A stretch of DNA of 64,000 bases from an uncultured Clostridia bacterium (GCA_948739805.1 CAPYID010000001.1:65856-129855); one strand, 5' to 3'; counted from the stretch's first letter, positions 26,995-34,944 are shown. The notes: generated by a model not told the origin, from the letters alone. Program-made: numbers and translations.

Positions 26995-27068
26995 ACAAAA
27001 ATAAGAAAATATTGATATTTAGTAAGTTTCGCCTATAGTTTATAAATAAAAATTGGAGGTAAAAGATT

Positions 27069-27461
27069 ATGAAAAATGAAGAATTAAAGAAAGAATTTAC
27101 AGATGAAAAGACTGGAATAAGTTATACTTTAGTTGGTGACTATTATTTGCCCAACTTATATTTAGAAACAGAAGAAAAAATCACACTTAACAAATACGGA
27201 TTATTAAGGCTAGATTATTTGAAAAAGCACAAAGAAGCTGATTATATAATAATGTTTATGAATAAAGAACTCAATAAGCATTTAAAAGAAGTACAAGAAA
27301 GAACACAAGCAAGAGTAAATGAATTAGTAGAACAATTAAAGGCTAAAAGTAATTTAACAGAAGATATGAAAAATACTGATATGCTTTATTGGATTGGTAC
27401 AATGAACGCAATCAAAAATCAAGCTGAAGAAATTGTTTTAAAAGAACTGATTTATGTATGA
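27069..27461 (+). CDS. TnpV-family transposon protein
   Basis: 130 aa. SYTLVGDYYLPNL..., YGLLRLDYLKKH, and WIGTMNAIKNQAEEIVLKELIY match the TnpV family pattern. Confidence 0.6.
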   Translation: MKNEELKKEFTDEKTGISYTLVGDYYLPNLYLETEEKITLNKYGLLRLDYLKKHKEADYIIMFMNKELNKHLKEVQERTQARVNELVEQLKAKSNLTEDMKNTDMLYWIGTMNAIKNQAEEIVLKELIYV

Positions 27462-27833
27462 TAACGTTACGCTATTTTCAAATATAAATGCCTTAAAAAG
27501 CATTTTAAGACTTAATTGAATAAGAACATATTAACTACTTGTAGTTTTATAACTATGAGTAGTTTTTTATGTTCAAAAGAGAAATGAAACACCTCTTAAA
27601 AAATGTTTGATGTAATGAGAATATAGATTTGCCATAGAGCGTGGAAGTTTGAAACCGAGCAAGGTTTCATAGAGTAAGGAAAATTTATTTTTTCTTACTC
27701 TTTTTCAATAAATGCAGATATGCAGTTTATTGAAAGCCTAACAAATAGACTTGTCATTTGTTAGGAAAAATCAAAAATGCTAATAGCAATTTTGATTTTG
27801 GGTTGTAGGGTTTCCCTGCCACACAGATAAACT

Positions 27834-27863
27834 TTGTTTGTCTAGTGTGTTAGACAAGTAAAC
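27834..27863 (+). promoter_or_regulatory. oriT of MobV relaxase (pMV158-type, hairpin with TAGTGTG/TTA nick motif)
   Basis: ttgtctaGTGTGttagacaa hairpin ~35 nt upstream of the mob start, with GTGTG/TTA in the loop. Further IRs upstream (cctaacaaat...atttgttagg). Confidence 0.5.
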
Positions 27864-27895
27864 TTATTTTGAGCAAGAAAGGAGCGTTGGAGAAT

Positions 27896-29110
27896 ATGAG
27901 TTACGCTATCGTAAGAAATAAAAAATTAACACGAGCAGAAATAAATGGAAAAGGCACTCATAATGATAGAAAAGCAAAAAATCATTCTAATAAAGATATT
28001 GATCCTACTAGAACACATTTGAATTATTATATTAAGAAAAATGAGTTCACATATACAAAAGAATTTGATAAATATATAAAAGAAAATAATTTACAAGGTC
28101 ATCTTCGTAGTAATAGCATAATAATGTGTCAAATGATATTTACTTCTGATCAATCATTCTTTGATAAAATTGGAGAAAAAGAAACTAAACGATATTTTGA
28201 TGAATGTTATAAATTCATTTGTAATTATAAAAATTTAGGAGAAAAGAATATAATATCAGCAGTAGTACATCTTGATGAAGGAGCACCACACATGCACTTG
28301 ATGTTTGTTCCTGTTGTGCATACCAAAGATAAAGACGGCAATAAAATTGATAAGATTTGTGCAAGAGATTTTTGGAAAGGTAGAGATAGTTACAGAAAGC
28401 TACAAGATGCCTATTTCAATCATGTTAAGTCAAAAGGCTTTGATTTAGAAAGAGGTATGTTTATCGAAGATACTGGAAGAAAACATTATACTATTGAAGA
28501 ATATAAGAAAATTACAAATTATGAAAATACTAAAAAAGTATTGAATGATATAAAATTGGATTTGCCAAATGTTCCAAATATAAGTGATATTGGTAAATTC
28601 ACATTAAAAAGAGATGAAAAAATATTAGATGAAATTATAAAACCTAAAGATGATTTGATTAAGGAGTTATATAGAAATAACTTATCATTGCATAAAGAAT
28701 TAACAAAACAATCTAAAATTATTGATGAAGTTCAAAAATACCAAAAAGAAAGAAATTCAATAATTGCCGATAATCAAGAACTTCATAATACAGTTAAAAA
28801 TTTAGAATATGAATATAAGGAAAAGAAGAAAACTCTTGAACACGAATTTGAAGATAAATCATTTAATTTAGAATGGCAATATAAGAATAAAATTCATAAT
28901 TTAGAAAAAGAAAATAGCCACTTGAAAAAGGTTATTGATAAATTTAAGGAAACTATCTCAAAATTCATAAAATGGATATGTAAAAATTTTGATTTACTTT
29001 CTGAAGATGAGATTATTAGAGATTTTGAAAAAGAAACTCATACTTTTATTGATGCAGAAAAACAAGTCAAAAAAGAAGATAAAGAAAAAGAATGGGATTT
29101 AGAGCGATAA
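27896..29110 (+). CDS. MobV-family (Mob/Pre) relaxase
   Basis: Starts MSYAIVR. Motif III VVHLDEGAPHMHLMFVPV (HxDExTPHxH). Coiled-coil C-terminal half. AAAGGAG RBS. Confidence 0.85.
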   Translation: MSYAIVRNKKLTRAEINGKGTHNDRKAKNHSNKDIDPTRTHLNYYIKKNEFTYTKEFDKYIKENNLQGHLRSNSIIMCQMIFTSDQSFFDKIGEKETKRYFDECYKFICNYKNLGEKNIISAVVHLDEGAPHMHLMFVPVVHTKDKDGNKIDKICARDFWKGRDSYRKLQDAYFNHVKSKGFDLERGMFIEDTGRKHYTIEEYKKITNYENTKKVLNDIKLDLPNVPNISDIGKFTLKRDEKILDEIIKPKDDLIKELYRNNLSLHKELTKQSKIIDEVQKYQKERNSIIADNQELHNTVKNLEYEYKEKKKTLEHEFEDKSFNLEWQYKNKIHNLEKENSHLKKVIDKFKETISKFIKWICKNFDLLSEDEIIRDFEKETHTFIDAEKQVKKEDKEKEWDLER

Positions 29111-29115
29111 AAATA

Positions 29116-29137
29116 GACAGGGAATGCTTCCCTGCCT
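29116..29137. terminator. bidirectional stem-loop between convergent mob and ART genes
   Basis: acagggaa-tgc-ttccctg perfect hairpin. Confidence 0.45.
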
Positions 29138-32258: not shown

Positions 32259-32538
32259 ATTTTTTCTCCAATCTAAAAATTTTTTCAAAAATTTCGCAGT
32301 AATATATTGACATTAGTAAAATATTACAGTATAATTTTAAATATGTAATATATTTATCAATTATAAATATTACTTTTATTTTTAAGATAATACTTAACAT
32401 CTACAAATATATTACATTAAAATATAACAAATGTCAACACATATACAAAAATAAATAGCGTTATATGGGATTTTTATGCCTAAAATAATGCAAGTAAAAA
32501 ATATTAGTACATATTTAAAGGGAAGGAGGTTTTTGACA

Positions 32539-33009
32539 TTGAATAAGAAAGATGAAATTTTGAAATTGTATTATGAAGATCATTTGAAACAACAAGATAT
32601 TGCACAAAAAGTTAAAGTTTCTCAAGGTTATGTATCGCAAGTTATAAAAACTGATAAAAGATATAATTCAAATAAAGAAACTAAACACAAATCATCTATG
32701 ATTAGAAAGGCAACTTATAATAAAGAATATTATAAAACTTATAAGCGACCTAAAAAAGATGATAATTCATATCGAGAAATGCAAGCCCAGCTTGAAAAAG
32801 ATATTGCTGAATTATCTTATTATCATAACTATAATATGTCTGATTATGATTTTGTAAAATGTAATTCAAGTGCTTATCATAGAAATAGCAAAGGTAATTT
32901 ATCATTAGTAAATGGATTAACAGTTGGGGTTGATGTTCCTAGAACGGTAAATATGAATATCAAAGTGCCAACTCAAAAGTACAAATACAAATGCTGTATG
33001 AGTTATTAA
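32539..33009 (+). CDS. HTH-domain (sigma-70 region 4-like) regulatory protein
   Basis: HTH LKQQDIAQKVKVSQGYVSQVIK. Probable TTG start 8 nt after GGAGG. An upstream ATG at 32476 is possible. Confidence 0.45.
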   Translation: MNKKDEILKLYYEDHLKQQDIAQKVKVSQGYVSQVIKTDKRYNSNKETKHKSSMIRKATYNKEYYKTYKRPKKDDNSYREMQAQLEKDIAELSYYHNYNMSDYDFVKCNSSAYHRNSKGNLSLVNGLTVGVDVPRTVNMNIKVPTQKYKYKCCMSY

Positions 33010-33080
33010 AAATTTGTTTAAGACTTCTATTTAGAGGTCTTTTTATTTTACCCAGATTGACAAAACAGGAGGAATTAGAG

Positions 33081-33215
33081 ATGAGTGAAAAATCAAAAAA
33101 GAAAAATGAAATAGTTATAATAAATAAATTCAAAGACACTGGTGCAGAAAGTGTAACAACTACACTTATAAAAGTTTTTGAAATATTTTGTAATATGCAA
33201 ATGTCTAAAAGATAA
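33081..33215 (+). CDS. small hypothetical protein (44 aa) upstream of recombinase
   Basis: CAGGAGGAATTAGAG-ATG RBS. Confidence 0.3.
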   Translation: MSEKSKKKNEIVIINKFKDTGAESVTTTLIKVFEIFCNMQMSKR

Positions 33216-33334
33216 TAAACAAAGACAGATTTTAGTTTCCATCTATATTTTTAGCTATTGATTTTTATATTAAGTTATGTTAAATTGAAAGCATAAATTA
33301 TAGGTGGAACTTACTAAAGGAAAAGGAGGCAAAA

Positions 33335-34891
33335 TTGCTAGTAAGTAACACAAAAGTATATAACTGTGCTTTATATTGTAGATTATCAAGAGATGATGAA
33401 TTACAAGGAGAAAGCAATAGTATAACAAATCAAAAAGAAATTTTAAAACAATATACAAAAGAAAATAATCTAAATATTTATGACATCTATGTTGATGATG
33501 GTATTTCTGGAACTACTTTTGATAGACCTGATTTTAATAGAATGATACAAGATATTGAAGATAAAAAAGTAAATATGGTAATTGTAAAAGATACTTCAAG
33601 ACTTGGTAGAGATTATATAAGTTTTGGAGAATATATCGAAAAATACTTTCCAGAACATCAAGTAAGGTTTGTTTCTATTATAGACAATTATGATTCTGAA
33701 ATTGATAATGGAATTGCAGATACACTACCATTTAGAGCAGTATTAAATGATTTATATGCACGAGATACTTCTAAAAAAGTAAAAGCTACTAAACATAGAA
33801 ATGCTATCAATGGACTATTCAATGGAAAGTTTGCTCCTTATGGATATATGAAATCTCCAGAAAATTGCCATAAGCTAATTATTAATGAAGAATATGCCCC
33901 AAATGTAAGAAGAATTTTTGATTTATATTTAGAGGGAAAATCATCAATACAAATTGCCTATATTTTTAATGAGGAGCATATACCTACTCCCTCTCAAACA
34001 ATGGGTCAAGAGTATAGACTTTCTCCACTTTGGAAAACTGATACTATTAGAAGAATACTAAAAAATGAGATGTATATTGGAAATATGGTACAAGGTAAAC
34101 AAACACAAATCAATTACAAATTAAAGAAACCTGTTCATAACAAAAAGGAAGATTGGATCATTGTTCCAAATACTCACGAACCTATTATTGATAAGGAAAA
34201 ATTCTATGCAGTTCAAGAACTTTTAAAAAGTAGAGATAAGACTAGAACAAAATCATTGAATTTACTATTACGAGGACTATTATATTGTAAAGAATGTGGC
34301 AAGACATTAGGTGCTGGTACATCTCATTATAAAAATGGTAACTACACTCAAATTTACTTGCATTGTCGTACTTATCAATCATTGCCAAAACTAAAACTAT
34401 GTACTCCTCATTGCATGAATTATACAAAGCTAGAAAATGCAGTAATTAGCGAAGTTCAAACTATATGTAGAAAATATTTAGATGAAAAGAAATGTAGACA
34501 AATTATTGATGACAACAATAATAATGCTCAAAATGAAATTGAATTAAACAAAGAAAAAAGCAATTTGGCAAAAGCCATTGGAGTTTTAGATTTTCAAATT
34601 GAAAAATTATATGAAGATAAACTAAAAGGTCTTATCAATGACAATGATTTTTCAAGAATGTATGAGAAGAAAGTTAATGAAAGAGATTCTAAAACTAAAA
34701 AACTTGAAGAATTAAATACTGTTAAGTTTGAAAAAAATGTTGTTGATTATGAGAAAATCATACAAGACTTTTTAAAGAAGGAAAACATTACTGCTTATAT
34801 GCTAAATAGCTTAATTGAAAAAATTGAAATTAACCAAAATAAACAAGTAACTATATACTATAAATTTGCAGATTTAAACACTTTGTCATAA
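33335..34891 (+). CDS. large serine recombinase (TnpX/TndX-like)
   Basis: Resolvase catalytic domain [11 protein letters not shown]...[39 protein letters not shown], recombinase domain, Cys-rich zinc ribbon (CKECGK...CRTYQ...CTPHC), coiled-coil C-terminus. TTG start after AAAGGAGG. Confidence 0.9.
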
Positions 34892-34944
34892 AAAGATGTA
34901 AACTCATTAAACAACTCAGCTATAAAACTCGTGGGCAAATATGA

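What the first reader, a model, noticed from the sequence alone, without database searches (positions are those of the whole stretch)
26995..34944. Tn4451-like mobilisable transposon inserted at a GA dinucleotide inside a hisC-like aminotransferase gene
Joining 26994 to 34945 recreates a continuous class I/II aminotransferase (..DEAYGDYMSSTSSYD|NIMVLRSASKFYGLPNHRVGY..). TATGA is present at both junctions, as expected for TnpX/TndX-type serine-recombinase crossover at GA without target duplication. The element has TnpV at the left end, a MobV relaxase with its own oriT, and the recombinase at the far right reading toward the junction. In the excised circle the recombinase gene would therefore read across the joint into tnpV. 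No antibiotic-resistance gene is carried; the cargo is an ART/Fic pair instead.
Basis: partly seen in the sequence, partly recalled or inferred. Interest (0 to 1): 0.65.

Follow-up and report, generated by a model that had tools for sequence, protein, structure and literature searches.

The report
Mobilisable transposon splitting an aminotransferase gene

Summary
The junction is wrong.

As literally given (26994 joined to 34945) it is also out of frame.

DNA breakpoints against four empty sites and against more than 40 loci carrying related element ends agree. The element runs from 26976/78 to 34903/05 (7,928 bp) and is flanked by TCAT. Its ends are 22-nt inverted repeats (19/22 identical), exactly symmetric about the dinucleotide TC.

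In relatives the right junction reads TCAT, TCGT or TCTT, so only TC is shared. TC is GA on the other strand, so a TnpX/TndX-type GA crossover holds, but at a different place.

The recombinase is 37.6% identical to TndX. The gene order matches Tn6106 of C. difficile and is a circular permutation of Tn4451. No promoter forms across the predicted circle joint.

The element is nested in a conjugative element (ICE) that could act as helper.

Nearly all relatives instead sit inside another element's serine-recombinase gene, so the window copy is a secondary-site insertion.

Verdict: new member of a known kind, of modest interest.

The parts
26361..26975 (+). 5' part of the interrupted hisC-like aminotransferase gene (codons 1-205, through ...DEAYGDYM)
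   Evidence: blastn homology to the uninterrupted genes in L002-L005 ends at 26975. Best NCBIfam model is hisC, at 174 bits, below the equivalog cut-off.
26976..26979 (+). attL core TCAT; the inferred crossover dinucleotide is TC at 26976-26977 (GA on the minus strand)
   Evidence: Flank homology ends at 26975. Homology to related elements begins at 26976. TC is the symmetry centre of the terminal repeats.
26978..26999 (+).
   Evidence: 19/22 identical to the reverse complement of the right end. Conserved in 14 left-end instances at different targets.
27012..27039 (+). Promoter-like site TTGATA-16-TATAGT upstream of tnpV; it overlaps one copy of a conserved 26-nt motif (27018-27043)
27069..27461 (+). 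tnpV (130 aa)
   Evidence: Pfam TnpV, 2.3e-33. 46% identical to the TnpV of a TnpV-Mob-TnpW-recombinase element on a Salmonella IncHI2 plasmid.
27830..27865 (+). oriT hairpin; the loop carries TAGTGTG/TTA (27843-27852), with the predicted nick between G27849 and T27850
   Evidence: Inverted repeat 27830-44 / 27851-65. [quoted passage not shown] The decamer is conserved upstream of diverged mob genes in relatives, with different stems.
27896..29110 (+). MobV-family relaxase (404 aa counted from ATG 27896; the mechanical ORF starts at TTG 27869)
   Evidence: Pfam Mob_Pre 1.5e-44. NCBIfam MobV 149.5 bits, above the cut-off of 100. The gene is called as 404 aa in L001. The N-terminus MSYAIVRNKK resembles MobM SYMVARMQKM.
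29159..30106 (-). Cargo: R-S-ExE ADP-ribosyltransferase (315 aa)
   Evidence: Pfam ADPrib_exo_Tox 23.2 bits, just under the cut-off. Y166-R167-G168 are invariant, and S182, T184, E226 and E228 are conserved in at least 90% of 33 homologues. AF2 model pLDDT 87.6. Foldseek matches Certhrax, C3, iota/CDTa and VIP2 at probability 1.00.
30342..31367 (-). Cargo/backbone: Fic-domain protein with a C-terminal winged HTH; canonical HPFSDGNGRTAR motif; SoFic-type
   Evidence: Pfam Fic 1.8e-20 plus HTH_24. PADLOC SoFic 7.3e-50 over 15-345 of 361.
31371..32288 (-). 305-aa protein of unknown function; travels with Fic in several relatives that have it
   Evidence: No Pfam, NCBIfam, PADLOC or PHROG hit. A 294-aa ORF with no family hit sits at the same position next to Fic in L104-L110.
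32289..32475 (.). Divergent promoter region (perfect TTGACA-17-TATAAT at 32307-32335 on the + strand; TTGACA-17-TAATAT on the minus strand), rich in inverted repeats
32476..33009 (+). 177-aa sigma-70 region-4-like HTH protein (putative regulator)
   Evidence: Pfam Sigma70_r4 3.9e-06. Conserved at this position in relatives.
33081..33215 (+). Conserved 44-aa ORF just upstream of the recombinase gene
   Evidence: Called as a 44-47-aa gene at the same position in L094-L124. No family hit.
33293..33318 (-). Second, inverted copy of the 26-nt motif TTTAGTAAGTT.C.CCTATA.TTTAT
   Evidence: 88% complementary to 27018-27043. Near-invariant in 12 relatives.
33335..34891 (+). Large serine recombinase (518 aa); catalytic motif YCRLSRDD; the stop codon lies inside the right terminal repeat
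   Evidence: Pfam Resolvase + Recombinase + Zn_ribbon_recom. 37.6% identity to TndX over residues 11-511. Its 90%-identity cluster has 407 members.
34882..34903 (+). Right terminal inverted repeat TTTGTCATAAAAAGATGTAAAC
34904..34907 (+). attR core TCAT; crossover dinucleotide TC at 34904-34905
   Evidence: In relatives the same position reads TCAT, TCGT (L009, L010) or TCTT (L028), so only TC is constant.
34908..35386 (+).
   Evidence: Homology to L002-L005 resumes at 34906/34907. Gap-free 363-aa alignment after the corrected join.

Best explanation
Window 26978-34905 (7,928 bp, counting one copy of the core) is an integrative mobilisable element (mobilisable transposon). It integrated by conservative site-specific recombination, catalysed by its own large serine recombinase.

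The recombining site of the element is the joint of its two ends: TTTGTCATAAAAAGATGTAAAC-TC-ATCTACATCTTCTTATGACAAA. This is two 22-nt inverted half-sites around a non-palindromic 2-bp crossover, TC (GA on the other strand). Recombination with a weakly similar target, GATTATATG-TC-ATTAAACAAC, inside a hisC-like aminotransferase gene split that gene after codon 205. Nothing was duplicated or lost, and one TC remains at each junction.

The reverse reaction would release a circle and restore the gene. The circle could then be nicked by the MobV relaxase at its pMV158-type oriT (TAGTGTG/TTA in a hairpin loop just upstream of mob). [quoted passage not shown]

The cargo is a SoFic-type Fic protein (candidate anti-phage defence) and a C3/VIP2-type ADP-ribosyltransferase.

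Shown here: the boundaries, the end structure, the conserved TC, the gene identities and the oriT motif. Inferred: the actual crossover position within TCAT, present-day excision, mobilisation by the ICE, and the roles of TnpV, the HTH protein and the 44-aa ORF.
For: Breakpoints. Four uninterrupted genes match the window up to 26975 and again from 34906/7, with only 2-3 nt between those points in the subject. Related elements match from 26976 to 34907. The corrected join is gap-free over 363 aa at 86-92% identity.

Ends. The arms are 19/22 identical and symmetric about TC. The same ends are seen in 48 right-end-anchor matches (35 true right ends; the other 13 are left ends read on the opposite strand) and 14 left-end instances, at at least 3 kinds of target. 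The attR core reads TCAT, TCGT or TCTT. A subfamily with 69% recombinase identity keeps the same geometry (12 nt between TTATGAC and the core) but with AG at the core position on both sides.

Enzymes. The recombinase domains are present, and it is 37.6% identical to TndX. MobV scores above the NCBIfam cut-off. The nick decamer is identical to that of pMV158.

Literature. TnpX and TndX act at a 2-bp GA core without duplication (PMC5704250, PMC4430133, PMC3158075).

Helper context.

Cargo.
Against: There is no direct evidence of excision. A scan of metagenome and viral contigs for the predicted circle joint returned only unrelated sequences sharing the 22-mer.

No matched attL/attR pair with differing third and fourth core bases was recovered. 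The restriction of the crossover to TC rests on symmetry and on variation at attR alone.

The putative helper ICE looks partly decayed. Its coupling-protein gene carries a group II intron, an IS is present, and its own recombinase gene is frameshifted.

TnpX itself could not be compared.
Confidence: 0.85

Rival explanations
1. One reading: the element spans 26995-34944, and recombination occurred at the GA of a TATGA shared by both junctions.
For: TATGA is present at both places, and joining 26995 to 34945 gives an open frame.
Against: The join lacks 7 codons found in all 363-aa homologues. 34907-34944 is conserved aminotransferase sequence. 26976-26995 is conserved element sequence at unrelated insertion sites. 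TATGA occurs 3.4 times per kb. The join as literally written (26994 to 34945) is out of frame.
Confidence: 0.01
2. A DDE-type transposon with 20-22-bp terminal inverted repeats that made a 4-bp target-site duplication (TCAT).
For: Terminal inverted repeats and an identical 4-mer at both junctions resemble a classical transposon footprint.
Against: The element has no DDE transposase, and its only recombination enzyme is a serine recombinase. The repeats are symmetric about TC, not about the middle of TCAT: 3 nt lie between TC (or GA) and TACATCTT on both arms. The AT following TC at attL is constant element sequence at every target, whereas the third and fourth bases at attR vary with the target (TCGT, TCTT).
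Confidence: 0.03
3. The boundaries are as found here, but the element is now an immobile relic fixed in this lineage.
For: The same insertion with 99.98% identical DNA is seen in another sample (L001), so it is inherited vertically. No circle joint was found. The closest relative at a different site is only about 94% identical in DNA (L006). The surrounding ICE shows decay.
Against: All element ORFs are intact. The recombinase has its catalytic Ser motif and all three domains. Both terminal repeats and the oriT nick motif are intact. Assemblies rarely capture circular intermediates.
Confidence: 0.25

Closest known systems
Tn6106 (and Tn6104/Tn6105), putative mobilisable transposons nested in the conjugative transposon Tn6103 of Clostridioides difficile R20291 (PMC3158075)
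   Same: TnpV homologue at the left, a mobilisation protein in the middle, a regulator, and a single large serine recombinase at the right end. The element is nested inside a conjugative element that itself uses a large serine recombinase. The cargo is not antibiotic resistance. Tn6104 is flanked by a 2-bp repeat that is also present in the circle and in the empty site.
   Different: Tn6106 is 11.3 kb with about 50% G+C; this element is 7.9 kb with about 27% G+C. The cargo differs.
Tn4451/Tn4453 (TnpX) mobilisable transposons of C. perfringens and C. difficile
   Same: Large serine recombinase, TnpV and a Mob_Pre/MobV relaxase with an upstream oriT. 2-bp GA crossover without target duplication. 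Low target specificity away from preferred sites. The circular gene order recombinase, then tnpV, then cargo, then mob is the same.
   Different: The att site is permuted: here the joint lies between the recombinase 3' end and tnpV, whereas in Tn4451 it lies upstream of tnpX. No promoter forms across the joint. The recombinase is 518 aa (TnpX is about 700 aa, from memory). No TnpW or TnpY was detected, and there is no cat gene.
TndX of the conjugative transposon Tn5397
   Same: The closest named recombinase: 37.6% identity over the full length and a similar size (533 aa). Its gene sits at the right end, reading outward. It uses a central GA dinucleotide and prefers a conserved coding sequence (a Fic-domain gene for Tn5397), with looser secondary sites (PMC4430133).
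   Different: Tn5397 is a self-transmissible 21-kb Tn916-like element. This element has only a relaxase and an oriT.
MOBV1 integrative mobilisable elements of gut Firmicutes, and other serine-recombinase IMEs (MOBV1 IMEs of Faecalibacterium, PMC12084326; IME_Rho_tet, which has a different relaxase module with MobC, PMC12904643)
   Same: Small elements in gut Clostridia with a relaxase and a serine recombinase (the Faecalibacterium ones MOBV1, like this one), with terminal inverted repeats. They are often nested in ICEs ('matryoshkas') and integrate inside conserved genes of other mobile elements, with primary and secondary sites.
   Different: A different recombinase and target. IME_Rho_tet targets maff2 genes and carries tet(W)/tet(32). 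The family described here targets serine-recombinase genes and carries Fic, ART, HEPN-MNT and other cargo.

Membership tests
Tn4451/Tn4453 family (TnpX mobilisable transposons) | Large serine recombinase as the integration/excision enzyme | tested here: met
   Resolvase + Recombinase + Zn_ribbon_recom domains, 518 aa.
Tn4451/Tn4453 family (TnpX mobilisable transposons) | Recombinase orthologous to TnpX | not testable with these tools
   No TnpX sequence was retrievable. The nearest named relative is TndX at 37.6% identity. The Pfam DUF4368 hit is only 20.2 bits, below its cut-off of 25.
Tn4451/Tn4453 family (TnpX mobilisable transposons) | GA dinucleotide at both ends, in the joint and in the target; no target duplication | tested here: met
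TC (GA on the complementary strand) lies at 26976-77 and 34904-05. It is the only constant core base pair across TCAT, TCGT and TCTT junctions and is the symmetry centre of the ends.
Tn4451/Tn4453 family (TnpX mobilisable transposons) | tnpV present | tested here: met
   Pfam TnpV, 2.3e-33.
Tn4451/Tn4453 family (TnpX mobilisable transposons) | Mob_Pre/MobV relaxase (TnpZ) with an upstream oriT (RSA-type site) | tested here: met
   MobV 149.5 bits against a cut-off of 100. TAGTGTG/TTA lies in a hairpin loop about 45 nt upstream of the start codon.
Tn4451/Tn4453 family (TnpX mobilisable transposons) | [quoted passage not shown] | tested here: not met
   The recombinase gene is at the right end, reading outward. 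No sigma-70-like site spans the predicted joint. That the joint promoter is a Tn4451 feature is recalled from Lyras & Rood 2000, not read here.
Tn4451/Tn4453 family (TnpX mobilisable transposons) | tnpW, tnpY and catP/catD | tested here: not met
   No TnpW Pfam hit for the 44-aa or 74-aa ORF upstream of the recombinase. There is no cat gene. The cargo is ART + Fic.
Tn6106-type arrangement (TnpV left ... Mob ... single serine recombinase right, nested in an ICE) | Gene order and nesting as described for Tn6106 | tested here: met
   Gene order. ICE context. The description of Tn6106 is from PMC3158075. Sequence relatedness to Tn6106 was not tested.
MOBV1 relaxase / pMV158-type oriT | Nick sequence 5'-TAGTGTG/TTA-3' in the loop of an inverted repeat next to the relaxase gene; relaxase N-terminus and HxDE..PHxH motif | tested here: met
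   Exact decamer at 27843-27852 in the loop of the inverted repeat 27830-44 / 27851-65. The motif VHLDEGAPHMH is present in the ORF; the motif definition is from memory.
R-S-E (C3/VIP2-like) ADP-ribosyltransferases | Arg, Ser-x-Ser/Thr and Glu-x-Glu catalytic motifs on an ART fold | tested here: met
   YRG 166-168, STT 182-184 and ENE 226-228 are invariant or nearly invariant. Foldseek matches Certhrax, C3, iota and VIP2 at probability 1.00. The Pfam score is 0.2 bits below the cut-off.
SoFic anti-phage defence | Full-length match to the SoFic profile and a canonical Fic motif | tested here: met
   PADLOC SoFic 7.3e-50 over 15-345 of 361. HPFSDGNGRTAR is present. The NCBIfam SoFic equivalog scores only 66.8 bits against a cut-off of 550. 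So it is SoFic-like rather than an orthologue, and the defence function is untested.

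The most novel reading that the evidence does not exclude
This element belongs to a widespread gut-Clostridia family of mobilisable elements whose preferred integration site lies inside the coding sequence of another mobile element's large serine recombinase. Most copies sit at ...DD|VNT... in the catalytic domain of a recombinase gene that is followed by tnpV and a nikA-like gene. One copy sits in the zinc-ribbon region of another recombinase. 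In other words, the family homes into, and inactivates, the integrase of a competing or host element. The aminotransferase insertion in the window would then be an off-target, secondary-site event. I found no description of serine-recombinase genes as a dedicated IME target in the literature searched.
Probability: 0.4. Interest if true: 0.55.

Novelty: new member of a known kind. Interest (0 to 1): 0.3.

Why it matters
It gives a precisely delimited example of a serine-recombinase mobilisable element from uncultured gut Clostridia: exact ends, core dinucleotide, oriT nick site and helper context. It moves a candidate defence gene (SoFic-type) and an ADP-ribosyltransferase rather than antibiotic resistance.

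The corrected att sites are directly testable. They add a TC/GA-core enzyme, and a sister subfamily with an apparent AG core, to the set of natural large serine recombinases with defined sites.

The family's habit of inserting into other elements' recombinase genes would, if deliberate, be a tidy case of conflict between mobile elements.

Tried and rejected
1. Rejected by the protein alignment and the DNA breakpoints.

2. Direct evidence for the circular form. An exact-pattern scan for the predicted joint GATGTAAACTCNTCTACATCTT found 4 loci in metagenome contigs and 2 in viral contigs. None has any other homology to the element, so these are chance or pseudo-att matches of a near-palindromic 22-mer, not joints.

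3. A promoter created at the joint, as in Tn4451. None was found.

4. The idea that ART and Fic form a two-gene system. The 77%-identical ART homologue sits alone in a chromosomal neighbourhood. Relatives keep Fic without the ART. PADLOC has no model for the ART.

5. TnpW identity for the small ORF upstream of the recombinase. No hit.

6. The sequence search of the ART against the PDB found nothing. Only the fold comparison worked.

7. Older primary papers on the Tn4451 and Tn5397 ends (PMC11146126, PMC1483006, PMC111396) are not held. The published end and target consensus sequences therefore could not be aligned with these ends.

8. No uninterrupted copy of the family's usual target recombinase gene was present among the fetched loci.

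Full report
THE OBSERVATION

- TnpV, 27069-27461 (Pfam 2.3e-33).
- A Mob_Pre/MobV relaxase (NCBIfam MobV 149.5 bits, cut-off 100).
- On the minus strand, a 315-aa protein with a borderline ADP-ribosyltransferase hit, a Fic + winged-HTH protein, and a 305-aa protein with no hit.
- A 177-aa sigma-70-region-4-like HTH protein.
- A 518-aa large serine recombinase (Resolvase + Recombinase + Zn_ribbon_recom), reading toward the right boundary.

On either side lie two halves of a class I/II aminotransferase. TATGA is indeed present at 26991-26995 and at 34940-34944.

THE JUNCTION IS WRONG

Joining 26994 to 34945 as written is out of frame. Joining 26995 to 34945 is in frame. A database search with that joined protein found many uninterrupted 363-aa homologues, up to 90% identical. 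In the alignment the joined protein lacks seven residues that all of them have...YGDYM-x-L-x-NSAIKLVG-KYDNIMV....

The missing residues are in the window.

blastn of window 26500-35400 against four uninterrupted genes (L002-L005) gives homology up to 26975 and again from 34906/34907. Only 2-3 nt lie between these points in the uninterrupted genes. Joining after 26979 to 34908 gives a protein that aligns over 363 residues with zero gaps to P0001 (92.3%), P0002 (90.1%) and P0006 (86.5%).

The right-hand TATGA is therefore native aminotransferase sequence (AAA TAT GAT, conserved in L002). The left-hand TATGA is part of the element. TATGA occurs 217 times in the window, so the coincidence is unremarkable.

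THE TRUE ENDS

A scan of one genome per species for relatives of the recombinase returned 79 loci. About twenty carry recombinases 85-99% identical, from gut metagenome-assembled genomes labelled uncultured Clostridium, Clostridiaceae, Candidatus Merdicola and Clostridium sp. CAG:343. Their DNA homology to the window element starts at 26976 and stops at 34905-34907, exactly complementary to the flank breakpoints.

Both junctions carry TCAT (26976-79 and 34904-07). Immediately inside lie imperfect inverted repeats: ATCTACATCTTCTTATGACAAA on the left and TTTGTCATAAAAAGATGTAAAC on the right.

Written as the joint of an excised circle, the two 22-nt arms are 19/22 identical and symmetric about the dinucleotide TC, not about the middle of TCAT.

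With additional loci fetched through the look-up of encoding contigs, an anchor search gave 48 matches to the right-end repeat and 14 left-end instances. Of the 48, 35 are true right ends; the other 13 are left ends read on the opposite strand. At attL the four bases are always TCAT, because AT is element sequence. At attR they are TCAT in most copies, TCGT in L009 and L010, and TCTT in L028, following the target. Only TC is common to element and target.

This is the anatomy of a serine-recombinase site: two inverted half-sites and a central, non-palindromic 2-bp crossover. TC is GA on the other strand.

A more distant subfamily (recombinase 69% identical, L118/L119) keeps the same geometry, with 12 nt between the conserved TTATGAC and the core. 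It has AG at the core position on both sides. This independently supports the placement of the crossover.

The element is 7,928 bp long.

A DDE-transposon reading (inverted repeats plus a 4-bp duplication) is disfavoured. There is no DDE transposase, the symmetry centre is TC, and the third and fourth bases at attR vary.

MOBILISATION MODULE

The mob gene most likely starts at ATG 27896 (404 aa, as called in the near-identical contig L001). Its N-terminus, MSYAIVRNKK, resembles those of MobM and MobSag.

About 45 nt upstream, an inverted repeat (27830-44 / 27851-65) carries TAGTGTGTTA in its loop. This is identical to the experimentally determined MobM nick site of pMV158, 5'-TAGTGTG/TTA-3' (PMC5090054). 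Relatives whose mob genes are only about 70% identical in DNA keep the same decamer between different stem sequences.

The claim of a relaxase with its own oriT is therefore well supported. The predicted nick lies between G27849 and T27850.

RELATION TO NAMED ELEMENTS

In the plasmid collection the best named match of the recombinase is TndX of Tn5397-like elements: 37.6% identity over residues 11-511, with TndX 533 aa long.

A Salmonella IncHI2 plasmid carries an element with the order TnpV, aac(6')-aph(2''), Mob, TnpW, recombinase. Its recombinase is 32% identical and its TnpV 46% identical to those here.

The published description of Tn6106 in C. difficile R20291 matches the arrangement here: TnpV at the left, a mobilisation protein, a regulator, and a single large serine recombinase at the right, nested in the conjugative transposon Tn6103 (PMC3158075).

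Relative to Tn4451 (tnpX-tnpV-catP-tnpY-tnpZ-tnpW), the circular gene order is the same but the att site is permuted. It lies between the recombinase 3' end and tnpV rather than upstream of tnpX. Consequently no promoter is assembled across the joint (none found). tnpV has its own promoter-like site, TTGATA-16-TATAGT.

No terminator-like site lies between them. The point is untested.

CONTEXT

The window from about 4.2 to 40.3 kb looks like an integrative conjugative element:
- DUF3991/Toprim protein, MobA/VirD2 relaxase and DUF3801 protein.
- A coupling-protein gene split by a group II intron (RT/maturase at 11413-13227; Rfam Intron_gpII at 13241-13337).
- An IS3-type transposase, VirB4, a sortase and a CHAP hydrolase.
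- Accessory genes, including the aminotransferase.
- A sigma factor/HTH pair like the one upstream of tndX.
- A PemK toxin and a large serine recombinase gene split by a frameshift.

Beyond it lie polA, priA and RNase P RNA. The element is thus nested in an ICE, the 'matryoshka' arrangement common in gut Firmicutes (PMC12084326), and has a potential helper in cis, although that helper shows signs of decay.

CARGO

The Fic protein matches the PADLOC SoFic profile almost end to end (7.3e-50) and has the canonical HPFSDGNGRTAR motif.

The 315-aa protein belongs to an unannotated family. In 33 homologues, Y166-R167-G168 are invariant, and S182, T184, E226 and E228 are conserved in at least 90%. 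An AlphaFold2 model (pLDDT 87.6) matches Certhrax, C3, iota/CDTa and VIP2 ADP-ribosyltransferases at probability 1.00. The 'ART' label is therefore correct.

The two are not an obligate pair. A 77%-identical ART homologue sits alone in a chromosomal neighbourhood. Related elements keep Fic, the unknown 294-305-aa protein, the HTH protein, the 44-aa ORF and the recombinase, but swap the ART for other cargo such as phosphatases, NT5C, NUDIX and HEPN-MNT.

WHERE THE RELATIVES SIT

In nearly all related copies the flanks, read on the opposite strand, are the two halves of another large serine recombinase gene. It is interrupted at ...C-D-R-D-D | V-N-T-S... in the catalytic domain. A tnpV and a nikA-like gene follow that target gene.

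One copy (L028) interrupts the zinc-ribbon region (RCGFCGSTFTRR) of another recombinase.

The target genes are themselves diverse (38-99% identity), so this is a preferred site rather than one inherited insertion.

The window copy is the only one seen outside a recombinase gene. Its target, GATTATATG-TC-ATTAAACAAC, shares little with the usual target, GTATTTACA-TC-ATCTCTATC, beyond TCAT. It therefore looks like a secondary-site insertion, as described for Tn4451 and for Tn5397 in hosts lacking the preferred site.

I found no report of serine-recombinase genes as a dedicated IME target in the searches made, but the search was limited.

WHAT IS NOT SHOWN

No circular joint was recovered from public contigs. 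No matched attL/attR pair with differing third and fourth bases was found. TnpX and Tn6106 sequences could not be compared. Whether the element still moves, and which helper it uses, is inference.

VERDICT

This is a correctly recognised kind of element with an incorrectly placed junction. It is a new member of the known class of clostridial serine-recombinase mobilisable transposons / MOBV1 IMEs. Interest is modest. The most interesting lead is the family's targeting of other elements' recombinase genes.

Noticed in passing
window 4281-21364 and 36200-40274: The element is nested in what looks like an ICE of about 36 kb. It has a Toprim protein, a MobA/VirD2 relaxase, a DUF3801 protein, a coupling protein, VirB4, a sortase, a CHAP hydrolase, accessory genes, a sigma/HTH pair, a PemK toxin and a large serine recombinase at the right end. 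polA, priA and RNase P RNA follow.
   Followed up: partly
window 9634-13981: The coupling-protein (T4SS-DNA_transf) gene of the ICE is split by a group II intron. The N-terminal part is at 9634-10230, the RT/maturase/HNH ORF at 11413-13227, the Rfam Intron_gpII domain at 13241-13337, and the C-terminal part at 13505-13981.
   Followed up: partly
window 38573-40274: The ICE's own large serine recombinase gene is in two overlapping frames: a 94-aa N-terminal piece with the catalytic YIRLS motif (38573-38857) and a 503-aa remainder (38763-40274). This is either a frameshift/pseudogene or a sequencing error.
   Followed up: no
L007, L012-L016, L094-L113, L122-L124 (flanks of related elements): Related elements (recombinase 79-99% identical) almost always interrupt another large serine recombinase gene at ...DD|VNT... 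in its catalytic domain. That target gene is followed by tnpV and a nikA-like gene. In L028 the target is the zinc-ribbon region of another recombinase. This suggests possible homing into rival elements' integrase genes.
   Followed up: partly
L118 about 560-620 and 9687-9720; L119: A subfamily with a 69%-identical recombinase has the same end geometry but AG, not TC, at the core position on both sides, and sits at a different target. Natural variation of the crossover dinucleotide within one clade.
   Followed up: partly
window 27018-27043 and 33293-33318: A 26-nt sequence upstream of tnpV recurs, inverted, just upstream of the recombinase gene's ribosome-binding site (88% complementary). It is nearly invariant in 12 relatives. 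It may be a shared operator or an antisense promoter. Its function is unknown.
   Followed up: partly
window 32289-32475: A divergent intergenic region with a perfect consensus promoter (TTGACA-17-TATAAT, 32307-32335) and several overlapping palindromes. It lies between the 305-aa unknown gene and the HTH regulator gene, and is a likely control region of the element.
   Followed up: no
L114-L117: A 77%-identical homologue of the cargo ADP-ribosyltransferase is a chromosomal gene near cotJ genes, an acyl-ACP thioesterase gene and ffh in related Clostridia. The element's ART therefore looks like a captured host gene family of unknown target.
   Followed up: partly
window 15270-16460: An IS3-family transposase (rve, HTH_21) is inserted within the conjugation module of the ICE.
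   Followed up: no
window 41140-42630: A 496-aa Schlafen/AlbA_2 + HATPase_c_4 + Fic-like_C protein lies just outside the ICE's right end.
   Followed up: no
L087-L092: The near-palindromic 22-mer of the predicted circle joint occurs exactly in unrelated metagenomic and viral contigs that share nothing else with the element. These are chance matches or potential pseudo-attachment sites.
   Followed up: partly
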